Below the pieces are notes generated by a model that was given only the letters and a program-made list of their open reading frames with translations, made no database searches and was not told where the DNA came from. From Chloroflexota bacterium (lineage in GTDB: Bacteria; Chloroflexota; Anaerolineae; UBA2200): 64,000 bases of DNA. A program made the position numbers and the translations under genes. Below are positions 4,363-33,419 of this stretch, one piece after another; position 1 is the first letter of the stretch, and each line of letters starts with the position of its first letter. The stretch spans positions 8,011 to 72,010 of the forward strand of contig JACIWW010000012.1 in the NCBI GenBank assembly GCA_014360905.1, written 5' to 3'.

Positions 4363-4752
4363 ATGACAAGCAATGATATGAAGAACAAAACAATTACACG
4401 CAGGGAATTCCTGCGTCTAGGTGGTTTGACCATAGCGGCAGTTGGCGTGCTGCTGACCGGATGTCGTCCAGTGACGAACAACGAAACGCCCTCTGACGCT
4501 AAAGTTCCAGCCGATACACAGTTCACATTGGCCACGGCCACGCCCGCAGTACAGCAGAGCGCCGGCGCAAGCCAGGGTGCTATGCCCACGGCCACTCCAA
4601 CAACGGAGCAGATAGTCTTTGTGGCATGCCCAGTCGGGAGGGTCAACGATCCCTACCCCGGGCGATGCGCGCGCTATCGGGATAGCAATAACAATGGATA
4701 CTGTGACTTCTCCGAGCCTGGCTCAGGGAACGTGCCCGCACGAGAAAGCTGA
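4363..4752 (+). CDS. Small TAT-signal lipoprotein with Cys-rich C-terminus ([28 protein letters not shown]), function unknown
   Basis: AGGGAG RBS before ATG at 4363. Twin-arginine motif [10 protein letters not shown]. Lipobox LLTGC. Confidence 0.5.
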
Positions 4753-10789: not shown

Positions 10790-10823
10790 ACCTGTCAGGT
10801 TTAGATAGAGAAGAAACAGCCAG

Positions 10824-13121: not shown

Positions 13122-13130
13122 GAGCAACGC

Positions 13131-15380
13131 ATGGCTCACATGCTCCACGAAATCTTGGATGGCTATCACTACGAGGCATTGGCACGCATCGCCGAGTTCA
13201 ACCACATTGACACGGTGGATGCGCAAGGGCATAAATTGCGCAAGCGCGAGTTGATTGAGGCACTTTGCAAGTGGCTTTTCACGCCGGAGCGCATCGCGCA
13301 GGTGCTGGCTGCCCTTCGCCCTCTGGAACGGGCTGTCCTGGATCGTTTGCTGCTGCACGGTGGCGAAGCGGACACAGTGTCCTTGCGCGAAGAACTGCAG
13401 CGCGAGGGCATTGTGCAAGCGCAGCCCCTTTCCAAAGGGTGGCAAAAGAGCAACATCAACGATCCCTATGCATGCAACGGGGATTATTTTGAGGATGTCA
13501 TCGCTCGTTTGACCTTACGCGGGCTAGTGTTCAGCAGCAACGCTGAGTTGCTGTGGCCGCTGAACGCCAAACTGGGCTTTGCTCCAGGGCAACGCCTGAT
13601 CGTGCCGAAACCCCTGCGCCAGTATTTGCCCCGTCCCGAATTGCCTTCGCTGGAGTGGGGCCGGGGTAGCCTGCCTGCTCCAGTAGAAGAGACCGACACA
13701 GCGCTCGCACAAAGGGAGTTGTTCCTCTATTGGAGCATCGTGCGCGCCAAACCGTTGCCTCTGACCCAGGCTGGATTGCTCCAAAAACGGGCGTTGCGCA
13801 GCATCAACGAGCAGTTGCTCTTTCCGAACCATGCGCTGGAAAGCGCGAATAACGAGAGCGAAGCGCCCCACCTCTACTTTCTGCGTATGCTGTTGCAGGA
13901 ACTGGGGCTGTTGCTCTGCGAACGGGAGCAAGTGCGTGCCTCCGGTGAGCCAAGCCAGGTGCCCGAATTCTGGGAAAAGCCCATCGAGGAACGCGTGCGC
14001 GCCTGTCTTGAGGCATGGCAGCGCTTGACCCAATGGAGCGAACTGACGCATCTGGGAGTGTCTGCTTTTGACATTGACTTGCCACGCGCACGCGGTCTCT
14101 TGCTGGAGCAACTGCGGCATGTGCCGGTTGAAACCTGGCTCTCTGCGGATCGCTTCCTAAGCCGCTTGGCCATCACTACGCCGCGGCTGCTCTTCAAGTC
14201 GCGGGAGTTGCCTGCCAGAGGACGTTACTACCAGGATGTCAATCACGAGATGGAGCAGGATCGCTGGTTTGCCAAGGTCGAAGCGGCGTTTGTCGGTGGG
14301 GCATTGAGCGGGCCATTGCACTGGCTGGGATTGGTGGACATCTCAGCGGACGGAAACCGCCTGCTGGCTTTTCGCGTGAATGCCAGTGGCGCACGCGTAT
14401 TGGGCATTGCCCCCAAAAAGGCAGCAGAGGCTCCACCAGCTGAGACCAAGGTGATCGTGCAGCCCAATTTCGAGGTCTTTGCCTTGGGGCCAGTCCCGGA
14501 GGTGATTCTGGCCAGATTGGAGATGTTTGCCGACCGCGTGAAGGTGGATCGCAGCGCCTTTGCCTATGTGCTCTCGCGCGAGACGGTCTATCGCGGGCAA
14601 AGGTATGGCCTGTCCGTGCCGCAGATTATCGCCTTCCTCGAGGAGCAAACGCATGCCCCATTGCCGCAGAACGTCCTGCGCACGCTGCAGGAATGGAGCG
14701 AGCAACACGAACGCATTATCTTTCACCACACGGTCGCGCTCTGCCAAACGGCCAACCCGGAAGCGCTCGATGCACTGTGGAACGACTCTGCCGTGCAGAC
14801 GCATCTGGAGCGGCGCCTGACGCCTACCGTAGCATTGGTGAAAAGGGGACGTGCGGTAGCCTTGCGCGAACTGCTCCTTCAGCGCGGAATGCTGCCCGCT
14901 TTGAGCACAGAGCAGGATTCCTGTCTTGGGCGCGTGCAGGCCACTCCCGAAGGGGAGTTGCGCCCTGTCCATGCCGGCCCTGACTTGCTGCTGGAGAAGT
15001 TGTTGCAGGATTTGGCGGAGCAGCGGGATGGACGTTTCTACGTGACCGAGTCATCAGTGACGCGGGCGCTGGCTTCTGGCATGAGCGTGCACGAGTATCT
15101 GAAGCGCTTGGCCGCTCTGCAGCATGGGCCACTGCCGGCACAATTGCAACGGCGCATCAAGGCTTGGGGTCGCTACTATGGCAAAGCGGCGTTGCAAAAG
15201 ACAGTGCTATTAGAGGTGAAGGATGCCGCTACAGCGGAAGAACTGCTCGCCGATGAGGAACTGGCGCCGCTTTTGTCGCGCTTTGCCGCCGACACACGTG
15301 GATGCCTGTTGGAAGTGCGCACCGAAAATCTGGAGCACTTGCACCGTCTGCTGCGCGAGCGCGGGATAGAGGTAGCATAA
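13131..15380 (+). CDS. Large hypothetical protein, paralogue of the SWIM protein without the zinc finger
   Basis: 749 aa. Starts 10 nt after the previous stop. Shares an N-terminal helical segment and the GPLHWLGLVDIS...RLLAFR motif with the upstream gene. Confidence 0.5.
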   Translation: MAHMLHEILDGYHYEALARIAEFNHIDTVDAQGHKLRKRELIEALCKWLFTPERIAQVLAALRPLERAVLDRLLLHGGEADTVSLREELQREGIVQAQPLSKGWQKSNINDPYACNGDYFEDVIARLTLRGLVFSSNAELLWPLNAKLGFAPGQRLIVPKPLRQYLPRPELPSLEWGRGSLPAPVEETDTALAQRELFLYWSIVRAKPLPLTQAGLLQKRALRSINEQLLFPNHALESANNESEAPHLYFLRMLLQELGLLLCEREQVRASGEPSQVPEFWEKPIEERVRACLEAWQRLTQWSELTHLGVSAFDIDLPRARGLLLEQLRHVPVETWLSADRFLSRLAITTPRLLFKSRELPARGRYYQDVNHEMEQDRWFAKVEAAFVGGALSGPLHWLGLVDISADGNRLLAFRVNASGARVLGIAPKKAAEAPPAETKVIVQPNFEVFALGPVPEVILARLEMFADRVKVDRSAFAYVLSRETVYRGQRYGLSVPQIIAFLEEQTHAPLPQNVLRTLQEWSEQHERIIFHHTVALCQTANPEALDALWNDSAVQTHLERRLTPTVALVKRGRAVALRELLLQRGMLPALSTEQDSCLGRVQATPEGELRPVHAGPDLLLEKLLQDLAEQRDGRFYVTESSVTRALASGMSVHEYLKRLAALQHGPLPAQLQRRIKAWGRYYGKAALQKTVLLEVKDAATAEELLADEELAPLLSRFAADTRGCLLEVRTENLEHLHRLLRERGIEVA

Positions 15381-15613: not shown

Positions 15614-15642
15614 TTGACAAATCAATCGAAATGTGCTATAAT
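15614..15642 (+). promoter_or_regulatory. Consensus sigma70-type promoter TTGACA-N17-TATAAT, followed by a ~380-nt leader before the AOR operon
   Basis: TTGACA at 15614-15619 and TATAAT at 15637-15642, spacer exactly 17 nt. No ORF lies between it and 16028. Confidence 0.55.
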
Positions 15643-16027
15643 TATCTTGCAAATTCAAAAATCATAGTGCAACCGAGTTCGCGCTGAGCGCGCCTGAGGC
15701 ATTCTCCTGACAGTGTACCTGGGAGATGGCTTAAGAGAAGTGCTGTGTCGTAGGGGTCACAGCCTCCGACCTGTCTCCTCCCCCTGGGAGGAACGGGCGT
15801 TAGGGTACGGGGAGCAATTCCTGTGCCTGCCGTGTTTGCGAAGGAGGCGAATTCCAATCGAGTTAGCGATTGGCTATTTGCCTCCTTCTTGAATTTTATG
15901 GAGGGAATTGGGCAGCGTTTGCAGATTCACACTCAGAGAGGAGGTGGTGTGCAGGCAGTAGAACCCTTTGGACGTCCGTACGTAGACGCTACATTTCTTG
16001 ATCAATTTGGAGGAGGAGAGGAAAGAA

Positions 16028-16891
16028 ATGTCACAAAAGATGCAGGACAGAATTTCGGAACTGCAGGAGCAATTGCGGCAGGGCGTGATCAGCCGACGTG
16101 AATTCTTGCGCTATGTGACGTTGCTGGGTGTGTCGCTGGGAGCGGCGGAGGCTTTGGCTGCCTGCGCGCCCAAGCCCACACCGACCGTGGCGCCGCCTAC
16201 AGTGGCACCACCAACGGCACCACCGCCTACAACGGCACCACCACCGCCCACAGTTGCCCCCACGGCTCCACCGCCCGCAGCCGAGAAGCAAGCTTTGGCT
16301 GGGCACATGCTGCGCTTTAACCCCGCCATCTGCACCGGCTGCCTCATCTGCGCGGTAGCCTGCGCTGACAAGTGGGCCACGGAGTACTTCCCGGAGGAAG
16401 CCGCCAAGGGTGTCAACCTGGAATTCTCCCGCATTCGCCCCATGCGCTCGCAGTACGTGGATATCATCAACGTCTGCCAGGACTGCCGCCTGATTGAGTG
16501 GGCGGAAGGCTCAACTAAAGCGCCGTGCGAGCAGGTTTGCCCACAGGGAGCGATTTCAGTGGTGCCCGAAGGGCAGGGCAAGCCCGGCTACACCGGCATG
16601 GGCTACCTGAACGTAGACCGCGACCTGTGCCTTGGCCTTGATCTCTGCGGGCGCTGTCTGGAGGTCTGCGAGGACCAGTTCGGCAGCGGCATCTCCTTTG
16701 ACCCCATCGAGAAGAAGGCGCAAATCTGCACGCGTTGCGGCGGGTTGCCCACCTGCGTCGAGGTCTGCCCAGAGCCTGGCGCGCTGCTGTTCGTACCGTT
16801 GCAGACCAACGGCCGCTATTGGGCACAAACGCCAGAAGAGTACTTTGAACTTACCTATGCCAAGTTGTTCGCGGAGAGGAGGGACGTATAA
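16028..16891 (+). CDS. TAT-exported lipoprotein-type poly-[4Fe-4S] ferredoxin subunit with Pro/Thr-rich linker. Likely electron-transfer partner of the AOR.
   Basis: RBS GGAGGAGGAGAGG before ATG 16028. Twin-arginine SRREFLRY. Lipobox LAACAP. PTVAPP repeats. At least 4 Cys clusters (CTGCLICAVAC, CQDC...C, CLGLDLCGRCLEVC, CTRCGGLPTCVEVCP). Confidence 0.7.
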   Translation: MSQKMQDRISELQEQLRQGVISRREFLRYVTLLGVSLGAAEALAACAPKPTPTVAPPTVAPPTAPPPTTAPPPPTVAPTAPPPAAEKQALAGHMLRFNPAICTGCLICAVACADKWATEYFPEEAAKGVNLEFSRIRPMRSQYVDIINVCQDCRLIEWAEGSTKAPCEQVCPQGAISVVPEGQGKPGYTGMGYLNVDRDLCLGLDLCGRCLEVCEDQFGSGISFDPIEKKAQICTRCGGLPTCVEVCPEPGALLFVPLQTNGRYWAQTPEEYFELTYAKLFAERRDV

Positions 16892-18930
16892 TGGCCGAGT
16901 TAAAGGGTGCTACAGGAAAGATCGCACGTGTGGATCTGACCACAAAGAAAGTAACAGTCGTCGAGCCGCCAGTTGATGTATACAAGAAATTCCTCGGCGG
17001 CGAGGCGCTCGGGCTCTACTTTATGGTCGCGGAAGGCCTTATTGACCCCAAGGTGGAGCCGTTCAGCCCACAGAACATGGTGCAGTTCATGATCGGGCCG
17101 GTGACCGGCATAGGGCCCAATGCTCGGTCCGTGATCGTCACCAAGAGCGCGTACAACTTTATGACCGTCACGACGTCGGGTGGCCGCGCAGCGGCAGAAC
17201 TCAAGTTTGCTGGCTGGGACGGCATCCAGGTTGTGGGTAAGTCGGACAAGCCCGTCTACATCGCGGTGGTAGACGACAACATCGAGATCCGCGATGCCAG
17301 CCATATCTGGGGCATGGGCACCGAAGAGGCGGAATTGGAACTGCTCAAGTCGGTGCTAGCGCCCAACGAGTGGCGTGAGAGTATCCTCACCGACCGGGAT
17401 CTAACTCCAGAGTGGGCAGCGCTGCGCCCGGTCAAGCGCAAGGGCATCGGCGCCAAACGGCTGGCGGCGGCCTGGGTCATCGGCCCCGGCGGCGAAAACG
17501 GCGTCTGGTACGCCAACGTCATCACCGAGGGTGCGCGCGCCCATGGCCGCTACGGCGCTGGGGCGATTGTTGGCTCCAAGAATCTGAAGGGCATCGTCAT
17601 CCGCGGCACCAAGGGACACATGCTGGCTGACAAAGGCAAGTTCCTGCAACTGGCCAAAGAGATTCAGGCTTCCGAAGCCACCAACTACTTCTGGCGCTCC
17701 TTCGGCACAGCCGGCATCGGCGCCCGCTGCGCGAACGCTGAGGATGCCTTCCCCATCCGCAACTGGCAGTGGGGCGCCTGGGCGGATCCGATGGTTGTCA
17801 AAGCACTGGAAGGGCCGTGGATGGATGCCGCTAGCTTTGTCAAGCAGATGGCCTGCCCTGGCTGCACCTTGCACTGCATGTACCTCACTGAAATCACCAG
17901 CAAGGACCCGCTCATGGACGGCGTCATCACCGACATGCCCGACTGGGAGGCCATGGGCATGGTTGGCGGCAACCTGGGTTACTGCGAACTGGAAGGCACC
18001 ACGCCCAGCGATCAGTGGAAGGGTGACCACTGGGATTTGATGGAAGCCCTCGCCAAGACCCAGTATACCACCTTCCTCCATGACAACAATGGACTCGACT
18101 ACATCGAGGGTGGCGCGCTGCTGGCTATGCTGATGGAGCTCATCCAGCGCAACCTCATCACCCCAGCCGATCTGGATGGCATCAACCTCAAATGGGGCGA
18201 TGTCCATGCCGTGGATGCCATTATCAAGAAGATCGCGCACAAGGAAGGCATCGGCGCTGTGCTGGCCAAGGGCACCTACGAGACGGCCAAGTACTTTGCC
18301 GAAAAGAAGGGCAAGCCGGAGATCATGAATTACTCCATGACTGGCCATCGCTATACCCAGCCCGCGCACGACGTCCGCGGCTTTGACAAGGACGCTCTGG
18401 AGTACGTGACGGTGGAGCGGCCCTGCGAACACACCGGAGGCGGCGGCGCCGGGTTCATGAAGAAGGACTATCCCGCCGCCATTGCCGGGCAGAATACCCA
18501 GGCCACGCACAACTCCTTGGTCATATGCTCTTTCGCTGCTGGCAACTGGGCGGGCAAGATCGCGGCCATGGTGCAGGCAGCCACCGGCTGGACCGACTTT
18601 ACTGAGGACGACGTACCCAAGGTCGGCGCCCGCGCCTATGCCCTGGCCAGGATCTTTAACCTCACGACGCAAGGGATCAAGGACCCGAAGAAAGAATGGG
18701 ATAACCTTAACCTCTTCCCGCCTCGCTGGTTCTACGATCCACTGCCCACTGGCATCGGCAAGGGGCGTGTGGCGTACGAGGGCAAGCCAGAGGTGTTATT
18801 CAATGAAGCCCTGCCCGCTTACTGGAAGACCAGAGGCTGGAGCGAGGACAAGGGCGTGCCTCTCGCCGACACGCTCAAAGCCCTTGGCATTGACGACATC
18901 GCCGAACCGTACGCCGCCAAACTGCGCTAG
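16891..18930 (+). CDS. aor: Aldehyde:ferredoxin oxidoreductase family (tungsten/molybdopterin AOR)
   Basis: 679 aa. AOR N-terminal domain (MAELKGATGKIARVDLTTKKV...GGEALGLYF) and AOR C-terminal domains. RBS GGAGAGGAGGG. Overlaps the upstream stop by 1 nt. Confidence 0.9.
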   Translation: MAELKGATGKIARVDLTTKKVTVVEPPVDVYKKFLGGEALGLYFMVAEGLIDPKVEPFSPQNMVQFMIGPVTGIGPNARSVIVTKSAYNFMTVTTSGGRAAAELKFAGWDGIQVVGKSDKPVYIAVVDDNIEIRDASHIWGMGTEEAELELLKSVLAPNEWRESILTDRDLTPEWAALRPVKRKGIGAKRLAAAWVIGPGGENGVWYANVITEGARAHGRYGAGAIVGSKNLKGIVIRGTKGHMLADKGKFLQLAKEIQASEATNYFWRSFGTAGIGARCANAEDAFPIRNWQWGAWADPMVVKALEGPWMDAASFVKQMACPGCTLHCMYLTEITSKDPLMDGVITDMPDWEAMGMVGGNLGYCELEGTTPSDQWKGDHWDLMEALAKTQYTTFLHDNNGLDYIEGGALLAMLMELIQRNLITPADLDGINLKWGDVHAVDAIIKKIAHKEGIGAVLAKGTYETAKYFAEKKGKPEIMNYSMTGHRYTQPAHDVRGFDKDALEYVTVERPCEHTGGGGAGFMKKDYPAAIAGQNTQATHNSLVICSFAAGNWAGKIAAMVQAATGWTDFTEDDVPKVGARAYALARIFNLTTQGIKDPKKEWDNLNLFPPRWFYDPLPTGIGKGRVAYEGKPEVLFNEALPAYWKTRGWSEDKGVPLADTLKALGIDDIAEPYAAKLR

Positions 18931-18957
18931 GTCTGGCTAGTCCCGAGGAAGCACATG

Positions 18958-19002
18958 AGGGCCCCAACCTGTGTACTCCATCGGGTTGGGGCCCTTTGCG
19001 TA
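18958..19002 (+). terminator. Rho-independent terminator after aor
   Basis: GGGCCCCAACC-loop-GGTTGGGGCCC followed by TTTGCGT. Confidence 0.6.
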
Positions 19003-19018
19003 TGTGGTTGTGCGCCGT

Positions 19019-19115
19019 CAACGAATGGGGACACGAATAAACGAATAGCATGTTGTAGTTAGATCCGTCTGTTGCCTGATTCGTTGATGGCCCATTTGTC
19101 ATGCTGAGGCCAGCT
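19019..19115. repeat. Iterated-hexamer hairpin element (ACGAAT x3 ... ATTCGT), second repeat family
   Basis: TCAACGAATGGGGACACGAATAAACGAAT...ATTCGTTGATGG. Related copy at 41003-41080. Confidence 0.6.
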
Positions 19116-19214
19116 GAAGCATCTGACGCAGCCAAACGGTCTCACATAACTCGCGAGGAAAAATCGCAGGCCGGCGTGGGCGACAGTCCATAACTTTAAT
19201 ATGAAACTGCAGGT

Positions 19215-20141
19215 GTGATAATGCAAGAACAAAGGACGTGGAATTATAATGAATTCTTCTACCGCAATTATGGCATCTTCACGGAAGAGGAACAGCGCCG
19301 CATCAGGGATGCCAGAGTAGTAGTTGCTGGCTGTGGCGGTATCGGCGGGGTACTTGCGGTCGCTCTGGCACGCATGGGTATCAGCCACTTGGTGCTTATG
19401 GACCCTGAAAGCTACGAACCTTCGAACATGAACCGGCAGATTGCCTGTTTTTGCGAGAACATTGGCAAGAACAAGGCGCGTTGTATCGAAGAGCAGATAC
19501 GTTGCATTAATCCAGAGGCTGATGTTACGGTCTATGAGCGCGCCTTGGTATACGATGAAATCGAAGAGATTGCCAAACTGGGCGATGTCATCGCCCCGGC
19601 GATGGATGAATGGCCACTAAGCTTGATGGCGCTGGAAATCATTCGCAAATCCAAGCCCGCCGTGATGGCTTATCCCGTGGGCGCATTGGGACGCGTCTCC
19701 GTCTTCACTGCGGACAGCCCCACCGTGGCCGAATGCTTGGTGATGCCCTATGGATTTGGCTATCATGAATTGCAGGAGTATACTACGCGCCCGGACGCGC
19801 GGTGGCTTCTCTTGTATTATGTTACAGAAGGTCAGTGGAGGGAGGACTGGTTCGCGCAATGGGTGGAGGGCAAGCTCCCGCATGCCCAGATTTGTCCCAT
19901 TGTCTGGATTACCGGGACATTGGCGGCGCTGGAAATCATCAAACTGGTTAGTGGTAAATGGAAACCTGTTATTTCTCCCTATTATTGGTATATTACGCCG
20001 TCGCGAGCGCGTATCCGAAAGTTCGGGCTGAGGCGCAAATTGGCTTCGCGGCTATCGCGGCACAAGGCGCTGAGGGAACAGATGATCCGCTTGGCGCGCT
20101 CGAAAGCATTTGTACGCTTTTTCACACGTCTGATTGACTAG
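19215..20141 (+). CDS. ThiF/MoeB/HesA-family E1-like adenylyltransferase
   Basis: Rossmann GxGxxG motif VVVAGCGGIGGVLAVALARMGI. Typical ThiF-family core. GTG at 19215 or ATG at 19221. Confidence 0.7.
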   Translation: MIMQEQRTWNYNEFFYRNYGIFTEEEQRRIRDARVVVAGCGGIGGVLAVALARMGISHLVLMDPESYEPSNMNRQIACFCENIGKNKARCIEEQIRCINPEADVTVYERALVYDEIEEIAKLGDVIAPAMDEWPLSLMALEIIRKSKPAVMAYPVGALGRVSVFTADSPTVAECLVMPYGFGYHELQEYTTRPDARWLLLYYVTEGQWREDWFAQWVEGKLPHAQICPIVWITGTLAALEIIKLVSGKWKPVISPYYWYITPSRARIRKFGLRRKLASRLSRHKALREQMIRLARSKAFVRFFTRLID

Positions 20142-20158
20142 ATCGCAAGGAGTGACGG

Positions 20159-20662
20159 ATGAAACGATGGCTCTCCTTCCCCAATCTTCTGGCTCTCGTG
20201 GCAGTGGTTCTCATGGTCATGGGCATTACCCGCCCTTGGTGGAGCCTGACCTTGTTTGGCAATGAAAGCGATATTTATGTTTATCAGATCGTGGGCCCGC
20301 TCCGTGAACTCTTGGGCTACAAACGCAGTCCGCAGATGCTCCTTCTGACCAGGGTATTGATTGGCGCCGTGGTTCTGGTTGCATTGGGCAGTGTATTGCG
20401 CGGCTGGCCTGGACGGATCCTGATTGCCCTCGGAGGCATTGCTATCCTGCTGGGGGTCTCGCGCTTCCTGGGCAGAATTGCTGAGGTCGCGGAGGGGTTC
20501 AATGTGCCCATCCAGGGCCATGGCATTGGTGACTATGGTGGTTTTGCCAAAGTGGAAGTGAGCACTCGGCTGCGCACAGGGCTGTACCTGACAAGAGCGG
20601 GTGGTATAGTAGCCTTGCTAGCCAGCTTGCTGCACAGTATCATGCAACCGCGCCGGAAGTGA
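20159..20662 (+). CDS. Small integral membrane protein (4 predicted TM helices), unknown function
   Basis: RBS GGAGTGACGG. Hydrophobic segments. Confidence 0.5.
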   Translation: MKRWLSFPNLLALVAVVLMVMGITRPWWSLTLFGNESDIYVYQIVGPLRELLGYKRSPQMLLLTRVLIGAVVLVALGSVLRGWPGRILIALGGIAILLGVSRFLGRIAEVAEGFNVPIQGHGIGDYGGFAKVEVSTRLRTGLYLTRAGGIVALLASLLHSIMQPRRK

Positions 20663-20769
20663 AGATGGGTTTGAGGCTACCAGCCCTGGGCGGAGTGTGG
20701 TCGGCGCAAAGCCAATGGGAGCGCTGTGGTGCAACTCAAAACGACATATCGGAGATAACAGGATAGATT

Positions 20770-22218
20770 ATGCTTCATGAGATCAACCAATTGTTGGCTG
20801 AATGGCGGCAGGGCCGGCTCAGCCGACGTAGCTTTATCCGCTACGCTACGCTTTTGGGCTTGTCTTTGGGAGCAGCCGAAGCACTGGCTGCTTGCGCACC
20901 TTCTCCAACGCCTACAGCGGCCCCTACTCCTGTCCCTACACCTACAGCCACATTCATACCTAGTCAGATCGCCGGTGAAGACGCCGAGGTGCCAACCCCC
21001 GAATGGGTGCCAACACCCCTACCGCCCATGACGCCTACGCCGACCATTACCTGGCCCAAGCCAACTCCCACGCCGGTGATGTGGGAACCAGCCATGTGGG
21101 CTTGCCCTTCTTGTACAGAGCGCTTCTCCACGCAGGAGGAGCTCGTCAAGCACATCCTGGCGAAGCATGCACGCAAGATTCCCGGAGCCCGGCGCGTGGA
21201 CCAACCCACCTATGCCCGTTTCCTGACTGACCAGGTGGCGCGCTTTGACCAGCGCAATACCGTCTTCTCGCGTGTGATGTGGGATAAGGATTACCAGGAA
21301 CAGATTAGCAAAGTAACGTTGCGGCCAAGGCGCGAGACAGTGGAGGAAATGATCAAGGGCAGAGCGCTAGTCGCTGGTGCCATTTATGCGGACGACGTCG
21401 CCGGCAGCCTGGCGCCCAATTACCGCGGCTACAGTGGCCATGTGCACGGATATGGCGGGCTGTATGGGTGGGACGACCCAGTGAGTGCGGAACGCCTACC
21501 CGTGACCGACAAAGCAGAGATGTCGGAGCATATCAAGACCGTGGCACGCTTTTACGGCGCCGACCTGGTGGGGATTTGCGCAATCAACCCGCTATGGGTA
21601 TACTCGCATTACTATGACCGCGAAACCGGCGAATATGGAGAACTGGAAATCCCGTACAAATATGCCATTGTGATGGGGCTGGAGATGGACTTTGCCTGCA
21701 TCAATCAGTCCCCTGGCTTTGAAGCCAGTGCGGCAACGGCGCTGATTTATTCGAAGATGGCGGAAGTAACGGCCAAGCTAGCCAAGTACATCCGTGCTTT
21801 GGGTTACGAAGCGGTGCCCTCTGGAAATGACACGATGCAGAATATTCCACTAGCCATTGATGCCGGCTTGGGCGAAATCGGCCGGCTAGGCTTGCTACTC
21901 ACGCCCGAATTCGGACCACGGCAACGCCTCTGCAAGGTGCTGACAAACTTGCCGCTGGCAACAGACAAACCCATTGACTTTGGCATGCAGCGCTTTTGCG
22001 AGATGTGTCTTTTCTGTGCCCATGCCTGCCCCGCGAAGGCCATCCCCTTTGGCGAGCGTTCGCTGGAGCGGACTTCCATCTCCAACCGGCCAGGCATTTT
22101 GCGCTGGACGGTGAACGTGGGCAACTGCTACCTGTTCTGGCGTGCCAATGGCGGCACAGATTGCTCGAACTGCGTCGCAGCATGCCCATGGGGCCAGCAG
22201 AATCGTCCCTGGCTCTAG
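20770..22218 (+). CDS. TAT-exported RdhA/QueG-superfamily Fe-S (corrinoid-type) reductase, reductive-dehalogenase-like. N-terminal twin-arginine lipoprotein signal, Pro/Thr linker and a C2H2-type zinc-finger motif.
   Basis: Twin-arginine SRRSFIRY. Lipobox LAACAP. Finger CPSCTERFSTQEELVKHILAKH (C-x2-C-x12-H-x4-H). Family motifs RFYGADLVGI and AGLGEIGRLGLLLTPEFGPRQRL. Fe-S motifs FCEMCLFCAHACP (C-x2-C-x2-C-x3-CP) and C-x12-CSNCVAACP. Confidence 0.6.
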   Translation: MLHEINQLLAEWRQGRLSRRSFIRYATLLGLSLGAAEALAACAPSPTPTAAPTPVPTPTATFIPSQIAGEDAEVPTPEWVPTPLPPMTPTPTITWPKPTPTPVMWEPAMWACPSCTERFSTQEELVKHILAKHARKIPGARRVDQPTYARFLTDQVARFDQRNTVFSRVMWDKDYQEQISKVTLRPRRETVEEMIKGRALVAGAIYADDVAGSLAPNYRGYSGHVHGYGGLYGWDDPVSAERLPVTDKAEMSEHIKTVARFYGADLVGICAINPLWVYSHYYDRETGEYGELEIPYKYAIVMGLEMDFACINQSPGFEASAATALIYSKMAEVTAKLAKYIRALGYEAVPSGNDTMQNIPLAIDAGLGEIGRLGLLLTPEFGPRQRLCKVLTNLPLATDKPIDFGMQRFCEMCLFCAHACPAKAIPFGERSLERTSISNRPGILRWTVNVGNCYLFWRANGGTDCSNCVAACPWGQQNRPWL

Positions 22219-22294
22219 TCTGTACCCCAACTGCTTTGCTACAAGTCAATATCTTGAACACGACTATTTACATTGACAAGGAGGAACAAAGAGC

Positions 22295-22774
22295 ATGTTC
22301 GATGTGAACAAAGTGGATGCCATCATCGAGAAGCATGGAGCGGAACAGCGTGCTCTGACTGCTATGCTGCAGGACATCCAGGGCGAGTACAACTATTTGC
22401 CTCGTGAAGCTTTGGAGCATCTAGCGCAGAAGATGAAGTTACCTCTGATACAGGTGTATCAAGTCGCCAGGTTCTACAGAGCTTTCAGCCTGGAGCCGCG
22501 CGGCAAGCATTCCATCACGGTCTGCTTGGGTACTGCCTGCCACGTACGTGGCGGCGTTGCTGTCGCAGACCAGGTGGGGCGCTTGCTCGGCATAAAGCCG
22601 GGGGAAACGACCAAGGACAGGCGCTTCTCCTTTGACACCGTCAATTGCCTGGGCTGCTGCGCCCTGGGCCCCGTGATGGTTGTGGATGGCCAGTACTATG
22701 GCAAGATGGCTGCCAGCAAGGTGGAGCGCGTGCTCGCTAAATACTCGGGAGAGGAGGTTGCTACCAATGCCTAG
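22295..22774 (+). CDS. NuoE/HoxE/HndA-like [2Fe-2S] thioredoxin-fold subunit of an NADH-dependent oxidoreductase
   Basis: Cys motifs C-x4-C...C-x3-C (VCLGTACHV...NCLGCCALGP). RBS AAGGAGGAA. Confidence 0.85.
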   Translation: MFDVNKVDAIIEKHGAEQRALTAMLQDIQGEYNYLPREALEHLAQKMKLPLIQVYQVARFYRAFSLEPRGKHSITVCLGTACHVRGGVAVADQVGRLLGIKPGETTKDRRFSFDTVNCLGCCALGPVMVVDGQYYGKMAASKVERVLAKYSGEEVATNA

Positions 22775-24620
22775 GCTAACATCACGAGCCGAGTTCGAAG
22801 CGTGGCGCCAGTCCATACTTGCGAGCTGGGATCCAAGCAAACCCTGTATTACCGTATGCGGAGGAACAGGCTGTAGCGCCTTGGGTGCGAAAGAAGTCAC
22901 TGCCGCTCTGGGGCGTGAACTGAAAAAGCAAGGCTTACAGGACAAGGTAGATCTCAAGATGACTGGCTGCCATGGCTTCTGTGAACGAGGGCCTTTGGTC
23001 GTCGTCTACCCCCAGCATATCTTTTACCAGAGCGTGACGGCGGATGATGTCCCCGACATCGTCTCTGAGACGCTCATCAAAGGAAACCCCCTCGAGCGCA
23101 AGCTGTACAAAGATCTGGTGACCGGAGAGCCAATCGTCTATGAACCGGATGTCCCTTTCTACCGCGAACAACACCGCATTTTGATGAAGTACAATGGCCT
23201 GATTATCCCTACCAGGATTCAGGACTATATTGCCATCGGTGGGTATCAGGCGTTGTGCAAAGCTCTTTTCGAGATGAGCCCAGAGCAGGTGATTGAGGAA
23301 ATCAAGCGCTCTGGTCTGCGTGGCCGCGGTGGCGCTGGCTTTCCCACGGGTCGCAAGTGGGAAGAATGCCGCCGCGCTGATGGAGATATCAAGTATGTCA
23401 TCTGCAATGCCGACGAGGGCGACCCAGGTGCCTATCAAGACCGTAGCTTGGTCGAAGGCAACCCGCACAGCATCCTGGAGGGCATCATCATCGGCGCGTA
23501 CGCTGTTGGCGCTCACGAAGGCTTTATCTATATCCGTCATGAATACCCTCTGGCGGTCGAACACATCACCCGTGCCGCAGAGCAGGCTGAAGAGTACGGG
23601 CTGCTGGGGAAGAATATCCTTGGCTCAGGTTTCGATTTCACCTTCAAGGTGCATCGCGGGGCAGGCGCCTTCGTTTGTGGCGAGTCCAGTGCTCTGATGC
23701 GCTCCATCGAAGGCTATGCTGGCGAGCCGCGCGCGAAGCGCATTCATGCCACCGAAAAAGGGCTATGGGAGCGCCCCACCGTGCTGAACAACGTCAAGAC
23801 GTGGGCTTCGGTACCCCACATCATCAACAATGGCGCGGATTGGTTCGCTCAAATGGGCACGGAGACGAGCAAAGGGACGATGGTCTTTTCGCTAGTGGGC
23901 AAGGTCAACAACACCGGCCTGGTGGAGGTGCCCATGGGCGCGACTCTGCGCCATCTCGTGTACGACATTGGCGGTGGCATTTCCAGCGGCAAGAGATGTA
24001 AAGCTGTACAGACTGGCGGGCCATCAGGCGGTTGCATCCCGGAGCGCTTGCTCGACCTGCCCGTGGACTATGAAGCGCTGACCGAAGCCGGTTCCATCAT
24101 GGGTTCCGGTGGCCTCATCGTCATGGATGAGGACACTTGCATGGTGGACGTAGCGCGCTACTTCCTGCACTTTACCATGGAGGAATCCTGTGGCAAGTGT
24201 ACTGCCTGCCGCGAAGGAAGCCGACGCATGTACGAAATCCTGGAACGCATCGTGCATGGAAAGGGTCAGGAAGGAGACATTGAACGGTTGCAAGAAATTG
24301 GCACCACGATGATCAATGGCTCACTCTGTGCGTTAGGCCGCATGGCTCCGAACCCGGTTCTGAGCACCATCCGCTATTTCCGGGAGGAATACGAGGCCCA
24401 TATCCGCGACAAGCGCTGCCCAGCGGCGGTCTGCAAGGACCTGATCACCTATTCCATCATCGCCGAGAACTGCACCGGCTGTGGCGTTTGCCTACGCAAT
24501 TGCCCGCAAGGCGCCATCACTGGTGAAAAGAAACAGGTCCATCACATTGACCCAAGCAAGTGCATCCGTTGTGGCATCTGCCGCGAAGTCTGCAGATTCG
24601 ATGCGATCAAGGTAGAATAG
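22767..24620 (+). CDS. NuoF/HoxF/HndC-like NADH-binding FMN/[4Fe-4S] subunit with N-terminal 2Fe-2S domain and C-terminal 2x[4Fe-4S] ferredoxin domain
   Basis: RBS GAGGAGG before ATG 22767 (overlaps upstream gene end). FMN/NADH motifs GRGGAGFPTGRKW. SLBB domain. C-terminal CTGCGVCLRNCP and CIRCGICREVC. Confidence 0.85.
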   Translation: MPRLTSRAEFEAWRQSILASWDPSKPCITVCGGTGCSALGAKEVTAALGRELKKQGLQDKVDLKMTGCHGFCERGPLVVVYPQHIFYQSVTADDVPDIVSETLIKGNPLERKLYKDLVTGEPIVYEPDVPFYREQHRILMKYNGLIIPTRIQDYIAIGGYQALCKALFEMSPEQVIEEIKRSGLRGRGGAGFPTGRKWEECRRADGDIKYVICNADEGDPGAYQDRSLVEGNPHSILEGIIIGAYAVGAHEGFIYIRHEYPLAVEHITRAAEQAEEYGLLGKNILGSGFDFTFKVHRGAGAFVCGESSALMRSIEGYAGEPRAKRIHATEKGLWERPTVLNNVKTWASVPHIINNGADWFAQMGTETSKGTMVFSLVGKVNNTGLVEVPMGATLRHLVYDIGGGISSGKRCKAVQTGGPSGGCIPERLLDLPVDYEALTEAGSIMGSGGLIVMDEDTCMVDVARYFLHFTMEESCGKCTACREGSRRMYEILERIVHGKGQEGDIERLQEIGTTMINGSLCALGRMAPNPVLSTIRYFREEYEAHIRDKRCPAAVCKDLITYSIIAENCTGCGVCLRNCPQGAITGEKKQVHHIDPSKCIRCGICREVCRFDAIKVE

Positions 24621-24632
24621 AGGAGACAACAC

Positions 24633-26627
24633 ATGGTAGAACTCACTATTGATGGACAAAAAGTACAGGTTGAAGAAGGAACAACCATACTAGAAGCGGC
24701 GCGCAAGGTGGGCATCGAAATCCCCACCCTTTGCAGCCATCCCGACCTCAAGCCGTATGGCGCTTGCCGCGTTTGTGTCGTTGAGGTCAACCGCAAAGGA
24801 CGCTCTGTGGTCAGCACTTCCTGTGATTACCCGGTGGAAGAGGGGATGGAGGTCAAGACCAATTCCCCCGAAGCTGTCCGTACGCGCAAGATGATGATTG
24901 ACCTCTTGCTCTCGCGCGCTCCCAACGTGCGGCCATTACAGCTTCTGGCGAAGCAGTATGGCATCGAGAAGGCCAGCTTTCCCACGGATCATCCGGAGGA
25001 AGATTGCATCCTCTGTGGGCTCTGTGTGCGTGCGTGCGACGAAGTTGCGCAGAAGAACGTGATTGGCCTTGTGGATCGCAGCCAAAAGCGCCAAGTGAGC
25101 ACGCCTTTTGGTCAGCCCTCTCCAGAATGTGCCACCTGTGGCAAGTGTATCCCCTATTGTCCGACCGGCGCCATTGCCCATGTGCCCGGCATCGTGGTCA
25201 AGGGCGTGGGCGGGCTGTGGGTACGGCTGCGCCAAGTGGTGCAGTTGGGACTGTTGGCGCTGTTCCTGTACCTCGTGTGGAACACCACCAGAAAGGGAGT
25301 AGAGTCGCTGCCAATCAACCTCTTCAGCCGCTTCGATCCACTGATGGCGCTTGTCTCCATGCTGGGCTCCAAGCGCTTGATTGCCAATATGATCCCCGGC
25401 CTGGTCACCATCGTTGTCACGCTTTTGCTCGGCAGGGTCTGGTGCGGTTGGATCTGCCCTCTGGGGACGGTGCTGAACCTGTATGGTCCCAACAAAAACC
25501 CGCGCATCCCTGACAAACTGCGCCAGGTCAAATATTTCCTGCTCTTTGCCTTCATCGCCGCGGCATTGCTGGGCAGCCTGGCTCTGATGTGGTTAGATCC
25601 CATCACAATTTTTGTCCGTCCATTGGCTGGAGCGGTCTTTCCGGCCATTCTGCAGAAGCAAGCACCCGTGGCTGTTCCCAAGGGACTGGCTGCTGCGCGC
25701 GTAGCGGAGATTCCTTTGCGCCCTGTGGTGCATCCATTGCTGGCAGTGCCTTTGGTGATCGTGCTTGCCCTGAACTTGTTCGCCAAGCGTTTCTGGTGTC
25801 GCTACCTTTGCCCTCTGGGCGCGTGGGTAGCCTTCCTGTCCAAATTCTCCTGGATCAAGCGCTACATAGACAAGAAGATCTGTCTGGAATGGGGACGCTG
25901 CATCCCAGTCTGCCCTATGGATACCATTGCCTATGAGGATCTGAGCAGCGATCCTGGAGAATGCCTGATGTGCCTAGACTGCCTTGGCGTCTGTCCGTCT
26001 GGCGCTACCAAGTTTGGCCCGCAGCCGAAGCCTGGTTTCGGCTACAGTTATGATCCCTCACGCCGGCAGGTGCTGGCCTCGCTGGTGGTTGGTTTAGGTG
26101 GAGCAGCACTGCTCAAGACCGATATGCTCAAGAGCAAGAACCCCTACCAACTCCGACCACCGGGAGCGAAGGAGGAAGAGTTCCTGACCAAGTGTATTCG
26201 CTGTGGCCAGTGTGTCAAGGTCTGTCCGAACAATGCTCTGCATCTAGCCTTGTTTGAGGCTGGGCTGGAATCCATCTGGTCGCCGTTGCTTATCCCGCGC
26301 ATCGGCAACTGTGACTATGACTGCAATGCTTGCGGACAAGTCTGCCCGACCCAAGCCATTCCCAAACTGCCACTGGAAGAGAAACGCAAAGCCAAGATTG
26401 GCACAGCCGTGGTGGATTTCGACAAGTGCATCCGCTGTCTGCTCTGTGTTACGAGGTGTCCCGTGGAGGGGGCATTGGTACAGGGCGCAGTCGAAGGCCG
26501 CAAGGGCAAGTACCCCATCGTCAACCCAGACCTATGCATTGGCTGCGGCACTTGCGAGTTCGTCTGCCCGGTAGAAGGCGAATCAGCAATCCGCGTGCAG
26601 GCTGTAGGCACTGTCCCGCGTACCTAA
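24633..26627 (+). CDS. Fusion protein: NuoG/HydA N-terminal [2Fe-2S]+[4Fe-4S] module :: NapH/MauN-like integral-membrane polyferredoxin (CxxxCP TM motifs) :: C-terminal 4x[4Fe-4S] ferredoxin domains
   Basis: N-terminus [34 protein letters not shown]...C-x-x-C is NuoG-like. TM segments with CGWICPLG and CRYLCPLG are NapH-like. C-terminal clusters [33 protein letters not shown] and [12 protein letters not shown]. Confidence 0.6.
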
Positions 26628-30061: not shown

Positions 30062-30093
30062 AGTGTTCCTCTCTTTCTAAATCGCGGCTTTCT

Positions 30094-30861: not shown

Positions 30862-30863
30862 GC

Positions 30864-31631: not shown

Positions 31632-31674
31632 TACCCCTTACGTTTCCCGTTTTCCGTTTTCCTTCTCCCGTATC

Positions 31675-33410: not shown

Positions 33411-33419
33411 ACTGTGGTC

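What the first reader, a model, noticed from the sequence alone, without database searches (positions are those of the whole stretch)
16028..18930. Tungsten-type AOR paired with a TAT-exported lipoprotein ferredoxin: possible extracytoplasmic AOR via Tat hitch-hiking
AOR-family enzymes characterised so far (archaeal AOR/FOR/GAPOR, bacterial AorABC) are cytoplasmic. Here the AOR (no signal peptide) is translationally coupled (1-nt overlap) to a poly-ferredoxin that has a twin-arginine signal, a lipobox and a long PT tether. That is the configuration used for Tat co-export of cofactor-containing partner subunits. An outward-facing pterin-dependent aldehyde oxidoreductase anchored to the membrane would be unusual.
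Basis: partly seen in the sequence, partly recalled or inferred. Interest (0 to 1): 0.58.

Follow-up and report, generated by a model that had tools for sequence, protein, structure and literature searches.

The report
Membrane-tethered exported tungsten oxidoreductase pair
Two overlapping genes encode a tungsten-type aldehyde-oxidoreductase and an iron-sulfur partner whose export signal and lipid anchor should carry both to the outer face of the cell membrane. The principle was published in 2026 for another branch of this enzyme family, so this is a new variant, not a new principle.

Summary
Gene 16028-16891 encodes a ferredoxin with four [4Fe-4S] clusters. It carries a twin-arginine leader, an LAAC lipobox and a 43-residue Pro/Thr/Ala tether. 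It overlaps by one base a 679-aa AOR-family gene (16891-18930) that has no signal peptide.

The pairing is conserved in about 55 loci from Anaerolineae, Desulfobacterota and archaea. The anchoring style changes with the lineage. The same leader also occurs on ABC solute-binding lipoproteins, so export is very likely, though it has not been shown experimentally.

The idea is not unprecedented. "Class V" tungsten oxidoreductases (E. coli YdhV type) were defined in 2026 by a Tat signal on the small subunit. This large subunit, however, is WOR5-like and is not in the YdhV clade.

A P3-less (tungsten-cofactor type) riboswitch at 15752-15862 precedes the operon. In Chloroflexota the pair heads a conserved eight-gene block. 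The block also holds a Tat-lipoprotein reductive-dehalogenase homologue and a NuoE/NuoF-like module. The third subunit of that module is fused to a NapH/NapG-type transmembrane polyferredoxin. This fusion could wire the outside enzymes to cytoplasmic NAD(H), which is an inference.

Verdict: real, and a new variant of a known kind. Interest is moderate to high.

The parts
15614..15642 (+). Sigma-70-type promoter-like site, TTGACA-17-TATAAT, with TG before the -10 hexamer
   Evidence: 12 of 12 consensus matches. It is a consensus match only. It is not conserved in L003, where DNA homology begins at 15742.
15752..15862 (+). Moco/Tuco riboswitch aptamer (Rfam RF01055) of the P3-less variant, in the 5' leader of the operon
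   Evidence: 46.6 bits against a gathering score of 36, E 5.8e-8. The P3 stem columns are deleted in the alignment to the model. P3-less variants associate with tungsten-cofactor genes (PMC2408646; PMC11725836). The same element lies upstream of the small subunit gene in L003, L021, L047 and L055. A downstream CCUCCUUC segment can pair with the aptamer 3' strand in the minimum-free-energy fold, z = -4.8.
16028..16165 (+). Leader of the small subunit (WorS): helical n-region, SRREFL (16091-16108), h-region, and lipobox LAAC (16154-16165, Cys46)
   Evidence: TIGR01409 19.6 bits against a cut-off of 16.7. RR and F are invariant. The same leader type occurs on SBP_bac_5, SBP_bac_8 and NMT1 solute-binding proteins.
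16166..16294 (+). Pro/Thr/Ala-rich tether, 43 aa
   Evidence: Composition. Length (0-45 aa) and sequence are hypervariable across homologues, while the reading frame is kept.
16295..16891 (+). Fe-S domain of the small subunit (WorS), four [4Fe-4S] clusters
   Evidence: 16 invariant Cys. The best solved-structure matches of the family profile are the small Fe-S subunits of AOR-family enzymes: 8c0z_C at 1.2e-8, 6x6u_B at 1.6e-7 and 9mqx_E at 1.7e-7.
16891..18930 (+). Large pterin subunit (WorL, AOR family), no signal peptide, start codon overlapping the stop of the small subunit gene by 1 nt
   Evidence: AFOR_N and AFOR_C domains. Bit scores: P. furiosus AOR 259, WOR5 243.5, YdhV only 112.5. It groups with WOR5 at 100% bootstrap in a small NJ tree. 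The four cluster Cys (322, 325, 329, 546), E353/H514, R79/R216 and D398...D403 are conserved in 39-41 of 41 family members.
18959..18994 (+). GC-rich hairpin with an 11-bp stem, 29 nt after the large subunit stop codon; possible terminator
   Evidence: Read directly from the sequence. The T tract is short, and the terminator scan did not call it.
19215..20141 (+). ThiF/MoeB-family adenylyltransferase, conserved neighbour
   Evidence: PF00899 at 1.3e-37. Present after the large subunit gene in 32 loci. A role in pterin cofactor synthesis is inferred.
20159..20662 (+). 167-aa membrane protein with 3-4 hydrophobic segments and no family match, conserved neighbour
   Evidence: Present in 28 loci.
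20770..22218 (+). Reductive-dehalogenase homologue with its own Tat leader, lipobox and PT linker, and a C2H2-like motif (21103-21168)
   Evidence: TIGR02486 at 200.6 bits against a cut-off of 160. Matches PceA 4uqu_A at 9.3e-55. Its leader is 25/32 identical to that of the small subunit. Present in 29 loci.
22295..22774 (+). NuoE/HydC/WorC-like [2Fe-2S] protein
   Evidence: PF01257 at 5.9e-49. Present in 24 loci.
22767..24620 (+). NuoF/HydB/WorB-like FMN and NAD(H) subunit
   Evidence: PF01512 and PF10589. 797 bits to 7t2r_B and 769 bits to 9mqx_B. ATG 22767 overlaps the NuoE-like stop codon.
24633..26627 (+). 664-aa fusion protein. Parts: WorA/NuoG-N-terminal-like [2Fe-2S]/[4Fe-4S] domain (24633-25187); NapH-like membrane part with WCxxxCPLG motifs (25440-25466 and 25794-25820); internal twin-arginine transmembrane segment (26058-26117); NapG-like polyferredoxin domain
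   Evidence: Pfam domains. Hydrophobic segments. The N-terminal 183 aa best match 9mqx_A at 2.2e-42. The internal segment matches the NapG N-terminus, E 0.006. RR plus a weakly hydrophobic segment plus following Lys/Arg is conserved in 20 of 20 orthologues. This protein class was shown to be Tat-dependent by Tooke et al. 2017 (PMC5449189).

Best explanation
Naming: WorL is the large pterin subunit, WorS the small four-cluster ferredoxin, and PFD the 664-aa membrane polyferredoxin fusion.

Proposed sequence of events:
1. The bicistron 16028-18930 encodes a WorS/WorL heterodimer of the tungsten-oxidoreductase (AOR/WOR) family.
2. The heterodimer is assembled in the cytoplasm with its cofactors.
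3. It is exported folded by the Tat pathway through the leader on WorS. WorL has no signal and rides along.
4. It is then lipid-anchored at Cys46 to the outer face of the cytoplasmic membrane, on a flexible tether of about 43 residues.
5. Expression is gated by a tungsten-cofactor-type riboswitch in the 5' leader.
6. Outside the cell, WorL oxidises an aldehyde or a related low-potential substrate (unknown), or reduces the corresponding product. Electrons pass through its [4Fe-4S] cluster and the four clusters of WorS.
7. In Chloroflexota the likely partners are the exported NapG-like domain of PFD, which continues inside the cell as a WorA-like domain docked to a NuoE/NuoF-like NAD(H) module, and/or the co-encoded exported reductive-dehalogenase homologue.

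Shown: gene anatomy, homology, conservation, the riboswitch and the synteny.
Inferred: export itself, heterodimer formation, metal content, substrate and the electron path.
For: Leader:
- The Tat consensus reaches the TIGR01409 cut-off.
- RR and F are invariant.
- 52 of 54 complete loci and 112 of 120 cluster representatives carry RR.

Anchoring co-varies with lineage:
- a lipobox with a PT or PA linker in one Anaerolineae subclade and in archaea;
- a Gly-rich, apparently uncleaved anchor in other Anaerolineales;
- AxA-type cleavage sites and no tether in Desulfobacterota.

The same leader cassette is used on ABC solute-binding proteins, which must be extracytoplasmic.

Coupling: the 1-nt stop/start overlap is kept in 50 of 57 loci. 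In Desulfobacterota the pair is the only conserved unit.

Small subunit identity: the family profile's four best solved-structure matches are the small Fe-S subunits that bind the large subunit in AorABC, WOR5 and 9mqx.

The large subunit looks intact: the cluster Cys, E353/H514 and the pterin motif are all conserved.

Other support:
- 6 of 7 archaeal loci carry a TorD/NarJ-family chaperone (PF02613, E 4e-16) next to the pair.
- A second AOR lineage in L055 carries the same Tat-lipoprotein leader directly on the catalytic subunit, while sister sequences have none.
- Riboswitch evidence.
- Partner module: the order S-L-ThiF-mem-RDH-E-F-PFD occurs on one strand in about 22 loci, and L047 has S-L-E-F-PFD directly. 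Its homology to the class IV WOR module and to the NapH-NapG polyferredoxin is shown.

Precedent: Class V WORs.
Against: - There is no experimental localisation for any member.
- The Pfam TAT_signal model does not score the leader significantly.
- Two relatives have Sec-type lipoprotein signals instead of RR (L052 and P0178). This is hard to reconcile with export of a folded Fe-S protein.
- L046 has RK in place of RR.
- No tatA/tatC, lgt or lspA gene, and no TorD-like chaperone, was seen in the window. The rest of the genome was not available.
- The neighbouring NuoE/NuoF/WorA-like genes resemble the cytoplasmic module of class IV WORs. Taken alone, that would suggest a cytoplasmic complex.
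- The AlphaFold model of the small subunit was poor (pLDDT 52.9), and no heterodimer model could be evaluated.
- The only Class V enzyme tested (CsWOR41L) showed no activity with 46 aldehydes, and its small subunit did not co-purify.
Confidence: 0.72

Rival explanations
1. The complex stays in the cytoplasm as a class IV-like WOR, that is WorL-WorS with WorA-, WorB- and WorC-like subunits. The N-terminus of the small subunit would act only as a membrane tether or be non-functional. Only the NapG-like end of the polyferredoxin fusion and the dehalogenase homologue would be outside.
For: The gene order (small and large subunit genes followed by E, F and a WorA-like gene) mirrors class IV operons. 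The WorA-like and WorB-like proteins match 9mqx_A and 9mqx_B strongly. In class IV enzymes the small subunit contacts the WorABC module.
Against: A lipobox and PT tether have no function without export. The same leader sits on solute-binding proteins. Desulfobacterota and archaeal homologues have cleavable or lipobox Tat leaders but no E/F/polyferredoxin genes nearby. Archaeal loci carry a TorD-like chaperone. Class IV small subunits have no Tat signal.
Confidence: 0.08
2. Only the ferredoxin is exported, as a free extracytoplasmic electron carrier that might serve the dehalogenase homologue. The AOR remains a cytoplasmic single-subunit enzyme.
For: Most AOR-family members (65%) are single-subunit enzymes. 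Recombinant CsWOR41L purified without its small subunit.
Against: The 1-nt translational coupling is kept in 50 of 57 loci across three bacterial and archaeal lineages, and the pair is the only conserved unit in Desulfobacterota. The ferredoxin's closest solved relatives are all obligate partners of a large subunit. A related AOR lineage has the leader fused directly to the catalytic subunit, so outward-facing AORs do exist in these organisms.
Confidence: 0.08
3. The pair is exported as proposed, but it is not an aldehyde oxidoreductase. It would act on another low-potential substrate, for example aliphatic sulfonates as WOR5/ASOR does, or it would run reductively as an electron sink.
For: The nearest characterised relative in the tree is WOR5, now considered an aliphatic sulfonate oxidoreductase. 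The large subunit shares WOR5's altered second pterin motif, xS(A/L)VIC. The Class V enzyme CsWOR41L had no aldehyde activity. The family also includes a benzoyl-CoA reductase.
Against: The catalytic Glu/His pair of aldehyde-oxidising AORs is conserved in 41 of 41 members, and the first cluster Cys, which WOR5 lacks, is present. Identity to WOR5 is low, and bit scores to true AORs are equal or higher.
Confidence: 0.3

Closest known systems
Class V tungsten-containing oxidoreductases (E. coli YdhV with YdhY/YdhX; Cetobacterium somerae CsWOR41), Putumbaka et al. 2026, PMC13328260
   Same: A large subunit without a signal sits next to a four-cluster small subunit that carries a Tat signal. A periplasmic or membrane-associated location is predicted, and the function is unknown.
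   Different: - The large subunit here is not of the YdhV clade (112 bits to YdhV against 243-259 to WOR5 and AOR; the tree groups it with WOR5).
- None of that paper's 37 genera is from Chloroflexota, Desulfohalobiaceae or archaea.
- The anchor here is a lipobox plus PT tether, not extra TM or cytochrome subunits.
- A tungsten-type riboswitch is present, whereas most Class V enzymes are suspected to use Mo.
- The small subunit is only 27-30% identical to YdhX and YdhY.
P. furiosus WOR5/ASOR (Class II; PDB 6x6u, 6x1o) and A. aromaticum AorABC (8c0z)
   Same: Large/small subunit architecture with a four-cluster small subunit. These are the closest solved relatives of both proteins. WOR5 shares the insertion near residue 160 and the xSxVIC motif.
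   Different: Those enzymes are cytoplasmic and their small subunits have no leader. WOR5 has Asp where this enzyme has the first cluster Cys.
Class IV electron-bifurcating WORs (E. limosum / A. mobile WOR1; PDB 9mqx)
   Same: The small and large subunit genes are followed by NuoE-like, NuoF-like and 2Fe-2S/4Fe-4S 'WorA' genes. A P3-less riboswitch lies upstream.
   Different: Here the small subunit carries a Tat-lipoprotein leader, and the WorA-like domain is fused to a NapH/NapG-type transmembrane polyferredoxin. ThiF, a membrane protein and a dehalogenase homologue are inserted between the two gene groups.
NapH-NapG fused polytopic polyferredoxin (delta proteobacterium MLMS-1 Q1NSB0), Tooke et al. 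2017, PMC5449189
   Same: Five transmembrane segments, CxxxCP motifs, an internal twin-arginine before a weakly hydrophobic last segment followed by positive charges, and an exported four-cluster domain. Homologues are noted in Chloroflexi.
   Different: The window protein has an extra N-terminal WorA/NuoG-like domain and is encoded next to NuoE/NuoF-like genes.
E. coli periplasmic aldehyde oxidoreductase PaoABC, and the [NiFe]-hydrogenase small/large subunit hitch-hiking pair (from my own knowledge; not tested here)
   Same: It works like these systems: a Tat signal on the Fe-S subunit carries a signal-less, cofactor-loaded catalytic subunit across the membrane. PaoABC also oxidises aldehydes outside the cytoplasm. 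The leader weakly resembles the hydrogenase small-subunit leader (TIGR00391, E 0.01).
   Different: These are unrelated enzyme families (xanthine-oxidase family and hydrogenases). Neither is lipid-anchored.

Membership tests
AOR/WOR family, large subunit (WorL) | AFOR_N plus AFOR_C domains | tested here: met
   E 8.5e-53 and 4.3e-71, both far above the Pfam cut-offs.
AOR/WOR family, large subunit (WorL) | Four Cys ligands of the [4Fe-4S] cluster, and the Glu/His pair near the metal (P. furiosus C288, C291, C295, C494, E313, H448; numbering from my own knowledge, and it matches the 1aor sequence as reconstructed from the, 45 alignments) | tested here: met
   C322, C325, C329, C546, E353 and H514, conserved in 41 of 41 family members.
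AOR/WOR family, large subunit (WorL) | Two DxxGL(C/D) pterin-binding motifs | tested here: inconclusive
   The first motif is intact (D398-G401-D403). The second reads N541-S-L-V-I-C546, similar to WOR5's DSAVIC.
AOR/WOR family, large subunit (WorL) | Tungsten (not molybdenum) bis-pterin cofactor | not testable with these tools
   Indirect evidence only: a P3-less riboswitch upstream.
WOR small subunit (WorS) | Four [4Fe-4S] motifs, homology to solved small subunits, and a gene adjacent to the large subunit gene | tested here: met
   16 invariant Cys. Matches 8c0z_C, 6x6u_B and 9mqx_E at 1e-8 to 2e-7. 1-nt overlap with the large subunit gene.
Class V WOR (PMC13328260) | [quoted passage not shown] | tested here: met
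   TIGR01409 above its cut-off. RR is conserved.
Class V WOR (PMC13328260) | Large subunit belongs to clade 41 (YdhV clade) | tested here: not met
   YdhV is the most distant reference (112.5 bits). The NJ tree places the family with WOR5 at 100% bootstrap. The full 92-clade tree was not available.
Class V WOR (PMC13328260) | At least one further, membrane-associated subunit | tested here: inconclusive
   No such gene lies in the bicistron, and none is conserved in Desulfobacterota. In Chloroflexota the polyferredoxin fusion and a 167-aa membrane protein are conserved nearby.
Class IV WOR (bifurcating WorLSABC) | WorA, WorB and WorC genes next to the small and large subunit genes | tested here: met
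   NuoE-like, NuoF-like and WorA-like proteins; best or near-best solved matches are 9mqx_B and 9mqx_A.
Class IV WOR (bifurcating WorLSABC) | An entirely cytoplasmic complex, with no signal on the small subunit | tested here: not met
   The small subunit has a Tat leader and lipobox. The WorA-like domain is fused to a membrane polyferredoxin.
Tat substrate / bacterial lipoprotein | S/T-R-R-x-F-L motif, a moderately hydrophobic h-region, and a lipobox [LVI][ASTVI][GAS]C | tested here: met
   SRREFL at aa 22-27 and LAAC at aa 43-46.
Tat substrate / bacterial lipoprotein | Demonstrated Tat-dependent export and lipidation; Tat, Lgt and Lsp machinery present in the genome | not testable with these tools
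   The window holds no such genes, and the rest of the genome was not available.
Moco/Tuco riboswitch RF01055 | Score above the Rfam gathering threshold; P3 stem absent for the tungsten-associated variant | tested here: met
   46.6 bits against 36. The P3 columns are deleted.
Dual Sec-Tat polytopic polyferredoxin (NapH-NapG fusion) | NapH-like transmembrane segments with CxxxCP motifs, an internal RR before the last weakly hydrophobic segment, positive charges after it, and a C-terminal four-cluster domain | tested here: met
   (20 of 20 orthologues). Compared with the description.

The most novel reading that the evidence does not exclude
The eight-gene block 15752-26627 would encode a single transmembrane redox machine, a hybrid of class IV and class V WORs.

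- Outside: a lipid-tethered tungsten enzyme and a tethered reductive-dehalogenase homologue.
- Inside: a HydB/HydC-type NAD(H) flavoprotein module.
- Connection: an iron-sulfur wire formed by the WorA-NapH-NapG fusion protein.

Oxidising a very low-potential substrate outside would release protons there. NAD+ reduction inside would consume protons. Together this would form a redox loop that conserves energy from aldehyde oxidation (about -580 mV against -320 mV; values from my own knowledge). Alternatively, the machine could feed an extracellular, quinone-independent dehalogenase-type reductase, as in the Dehalococcoides respiratory complex.
Probability: 0.3. Interest if true: 0.8.

Novelty: new variant of a known kind. 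Interest (0 to 1): 0.6.

Why it matters
Outward-facing members of the AOR/WOR family are so far only predicted. They are reported to be confined to one clade (YdhV type), and they are suspected to be mostly molybdenum enzymes with no known activity.

This locus shows a second, WOR5-like lineage with the same export logic.
- It is very common in Anaerolineae metagenome-assembled genomes (more than 120 clusters at 64% identity or higher).
- It also occurs in sulfate-reducer relatives and in Methanocellales and Halobacteriota archaea.
- It carries a tungsten-type riboswitch.

This widens the taxonomic and phylogenetic scope of exported tungsten enzymes. It also offers clean natural experiments, because three anchoring styles exist for one enzyme.

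In Chloroflexota it points to a testable route by which extracellular low-potential substrates could be coupled to cytoplasmic NAD(H), or to a dehalogenase-like reductase, without quinones. That bears on how abundant but poorly understood Anaerolineae make a living in sediments and digesters.

Tried and rejected
1. AlphaFold2 of the small subunit with an 18-sequence alignment gave a poor model (mean pLDDT 52.9, pTM 0.28). I ran no fold search on it. A heterodimer model was not attempted, because the tool takes one chain and returns no coordinates or inter-chain error.
2. The Pfam TAT_signal model gave nothing significant for the leaders. TIGR01409 did.
3. Membership of the YdhV clade is rejected on bit scores and on a small NJ tree. 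The NCBIfam hit to PRK09849, which I took from memory to be the YdhV-type model (the output names it only 'aldehyde ferredoxin oxidoreductase'), scores 171 bits against a cut-off of 868. It is probably just the only general AOR model in that library.
4. I tried to place the family in the published 92-clade scheme through the paper's supplements. No organism names or InterPro codes could be found there.
5. I looked for a Mo/W transporter. The ABC system at 29369-34394 has PhoU, two ATPases, two permeases and a PstS-type binding protein. It reads as a phosphate transporter, not TupABC or ModABC.
6. An alternative start at Met94 is rejected. It has no Shine-Dalgarno sequence, and the Met is not conserved.
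7. The terminator scan did not call the hairpin after the large subunit gene. I list it only as a hairpin.
8. Literature searches for this module in Anaerolineae found nothing in the held library.

Full report
NAMING. WorL is the large pterin subunit of the tungsten-oxidoreductase (AOR/WOR) family. WorS is its small four-cluster ferredoxin partner. RDH-like is the reductive-dehalogenase homologue. PFD is the 664-aa membrane polyferredoxin fusion.

OBSERVATION. The two genes are as described.
- The ferredoxin gene starts at ATG 16028, behind a strong ribosome-binding site, and ends at 16891.
- Its product has SRREFL at residues 22-27 and a hydrophobic stretch ending in the lipobox LAAC (Cys46). 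A 43-residue linker follows, made almost only of Pro, Ala and Thr. The rest is a domain with 16 Cys in four [4Fe-4S] motifs.
- The stop codon shares its last base with the ATG of a 679-aa protein that has both AOR-family domains.
- That protein aligns with P. furiosus AOR from its sixth residue, so it has no leader of its own.
- The ferredoxin leader passes the curated cut-off of NCBIfam's twin-arginine model.

IS IT MORE THAN CHANCE?
- A scan of one genome per species returned 59 related loci.
- Of 57 loci with an upstream ORF, 50 have the ferredoxin gene ending exactly one base into the AOR gene.
- 52 of 54 complete N-termini carry the twin arginine.
- Among 120 database cluster representatives of the ferredoxin, 112 carry RR. 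Nearly all the rest are truncated gene calls.
- In an 18-sequence alignment the two Arg, the following Phe and all 16 Cys are invariant. The linker varies from 0 to about 45 residues with no sequence conservation. This is the pattern expected for a functional signal followed by a spacer.

IS THE LEADER A REAL EXPORT SIGNAL? Four comparative results say yes.
1. Anchoring changes with lineage in a way that makes sense only for an exported protein. One Anaerolineae subclade, which includes the window, and the archaeal homologues have a lipobox and a low-complexity tether. Most other Anaerolineales have a Gly-rich hydrophobic segment with no Cys and no obvious cleavage site. The Desulfobacterota homologues have short leaders ending in Ala-rich signal-peptidase-type sites and no tether.
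2. An exhaustive search of 1.8 billion representatives found only about ten full-length relatives at E of 1e-30 or lower. It also found more than a hundred proteins that match only the first 60-90 residues. Those I examined are ABC-transporter solute-binding proteins of three families and RDH-like proteins. Solute-binding proteins work outside the membrane, so this leader type is a general export-and-anchor cassette of the lineage.
3. Six of seven archaeal loci have a TorD/NarJ-family chaperone gene beside the pair. This family escorts Tat-exported cofactor enzymes (role from my own knowledge).
4. In the related locus L055 a different AOR carries the same leader, lipobox and PT linker directly on the catalytic subunit. 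Its close relatives of 677-684 aa have none. Outward-facing AOR-family enzymes are therefore a recurring theme in these organisms.

WHAT THE PROTEINS ARE.
- A profile of the ferredoxin family finds, as its four best solved structures, the small Fe-S subunits of AOR-family enzymes: AorA (8c0z_C), WOR5-S (6x6u_B, 6x1o_B) and 9mqx_E. It is therefore a WorS.
- The large subunit keeps the four cluster Cys, the Glu/His pair and the first pterin motif. The second motif has the WOR5-like form.
- On one bit-score scale it scores 259 to P. furiosus AOR, 243.5 to WOR5 and 112.5 to E. coli YdhV. YdhV in turn scores only 99 to WOR5.
- I built a neighbour-joining tree on 570 columns, using references reconstructed from the printed alignments. 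It places the family (92% bootstrap) with WOR5 (100%), away from the AOR group and YdhV. The taxon set is small, but the result is unambiguous about YdhV.

COMPARISON WITH WHAT IS KNOWN.
Putumbaka et al. 2026 divide the family into five classes. They define Class V by a Tat signal or TM domain on WorS and infer a periplasmic, membrane-associated location.
- They report 380 members (10.6%), all in clade 41, which includes E. coli YdhV and C. somerae WOR41. [quoted passage not shown]
- Their 37 genera include no Chloroflexota, Desulfohalobiaceae or archaea.
- The window's enzyme meets the class definition but fails the clade criterion. It is a second lineage with the same export logic. [quoted passage not shown]

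NEW PARTS FOUND.
- Promoter and riboswitch: upstream lie a perfect -35/-10 consensus (15614-15642) and an RF01055 riboswitch aptamer (15752-15862; 46.6 bits, E 5.8e-8).
- The riboswitch's P3 stem is absent. P3-less variants track tungsten-cofactor genes and precede the E. limosum WOR1 operon. This supports 'tungsten type', and it fits cofactor loading in the cytoplasm before export.
- The riboswitch is also present before WorS in L003, L021, L047 and L055. It was not found in the other subclades scanned.
- DNA homology to the closest relative (L003, 87%) begins exactly at the riboswitch.

SURROUNDINGS.
- In Desulfobacterota only the pair is conserved.
- In Chloroflexota about 22 loci keep the order WorS-WorL-ThiF-like-167-aa membrane protein-RDH-like-NuoE-like-NuoF-like-PFD on one strand. 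L047 has WorS-WorL-NuoE-NuoF-PFD directly.
- The RDH-like protein matches PceA (9.3e-55). Its leader is 25/32 identical to that of WorS.
- The NuoF-like protein belongs with HydB/WorB-type subunits: 797 bits to 7t2r_B and 769 to 9mqx_B.
- PFD begins with a domain whose best solved match is 9mqx_A, the WorA subunit of a class IV WOR (2.2e-42).
- PFD continues with NapH-like membrane segments bearing two WCxxxCPLG motifs. An internal [20 protein letters not shown] segment follows, and then a NapG-like polyferredoxin.
- The internal twin arginine, the weak hydrophobicity and the following positive charges are conserved in 20 of 20 orthologues. These are the features that Tooke et al. showed to direct Tat-dependent insertion of NapH-NapG fusion proteins.

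MECHANISM.
Shown: the anatomy, the homologies, the conservation and the synteny.
Inferred, in decreasing order of confidence:
(i) WorS and WorL form a heterodimer. This rests on homology to solved complexes and on the translational coupling.
(ii) The heterodimer is exported folded by Tat and tethered by a lipid at Cys46.
(iii) It contains tungsten.
(iv) Its electrons pass to or from the exported NapG-like domain of PFD, and so across the membrane to the NAD(H) module, and/or to the RDH-like protein.
(v) The substrate is an aldehyde.
A redox loop is thermodynamically plausible from textbook potentials (my own knowledge). In such a loop substrate oxidation outside releases protons, and NAD+ reduction inside consumes them. 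It remains speculative.

RIVALS. I consider a wholly cytoplasmic class IV-like complex, and export of the ferredoxin alone, both unlikely. The reasons are given under the rival explanations. That the substrate is not an aldehyde remains a serious possibility.

LIMITS.
- There are no experiments and no whole genome.
- The reference tree is small.
- The AlphaFold model of WorS was poor, and no complex model could be made.
- Two relatives with Sec-type lipoprotein signals are unexplained.

VERDICT. The principle is already published, but this lineage, its anchor, its riboswitch and its gene block are not. It is a new variant of a known kind. Interest 0.6.

Noticed in passing
window 20770-22218 (motif 21103-21168); L049 and L051 WorS; P0257; P0409: A C2H2 zinc-finger-like motif (C-x2-C-x12-H-x3/4-H) sits just after the anchor and linker in several unrelated exported redox proteins. 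These are the window's reductive-dehalogenase homologue, two archaeal small subunits, an AOR and another dehalogenase homologue. It could be a shared docking module. Its function is unknown.
   Followed up: partly
window 20770-20900 vs 16082-16177: The leader of the dehalogenase homologue is 25/32 aa identical to that of the ferredoxin (65/96 nt). The same leader type is found on many solute-binding lipoproteins in metagenomes, so it is a lineage-wide Tat-lipoprotein cassette with a helical n-region (ELQEQLRQG).
   Followed up: yes
L055:1483-4004: A second P3-less riboswitch precedes a 747-aa AOR that carries its own Tat leader, lipobox and PT linker. A ThiF fragment, a membrane protein and a dehalogenase homologue follow, so the module is duplicated upstream of the small/large subunit module.
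   Followed up: partly
L061:269-2684: A cytochrome b561 (PF01292) is fused to a WorS-like Fe-S domain and is followed 14 nt later by an AOR-family gene. This is a further way of attaching a WOR to the membrane.
   Followed up: partly
L049, L051-L053, L056, L057 (archaeal loci): The archaeal versions of the pair are followed by a polyferredoxin of about 480 aa with an MvhD/FlpD domain, and by a TorD/NarJ-family chaperone.
   Followed up: partly
L052 WorS; P0178: Two family members have Sec-type lipoprotein signals (no RR) on a four-cluster ferredoxin. This is hard to reconcile with export of a folded Fe-S protein.
   Followed up: no
L031:3829-10034: Two small/large subunit gene pairs lie in tandem in one Anaerolineaceae metagenome-assembled genome.
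   Followed up: no
window 53998-64000: A very long CRISPR array: 135 repeats of about 37 nt (GTTGCAGACACTCGATCCGAGGATAGGATACTGAAAG) at 73-75 nt spacing. It runs to the window end and explains the drop in GC and the strong skew there.
   Followed up: partly
window 41700-53788: A WYL-domain regulator and a cas gene set (Csc2, Cas3-like helicase, Cas6, Cas1, Cas4) lie next to the array. The set looks type I-D-like. Several of its ORFs have no Pfam match.
   Followed up: no
window 9005-15380: An XPB/ERCC3-type helicase (594 aa) is followed by two large proteins (765 and 749 aa) that carry the Helicase_C_3 domain. This three-gene unit of unknown role lies directly upstream of the riboswitch. It is not syntenic in L003.
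   Followed up: no
window 29369-34394 (- strand): A Pst-type phosphate ABC transporter with PhoU and two ATPase genes. It is not a tungstate or molybdate transporter.
   Followed up: partly
window 1-4752: Five ORFs of 142-292 aa with no Pfam match.
   Followed up: no
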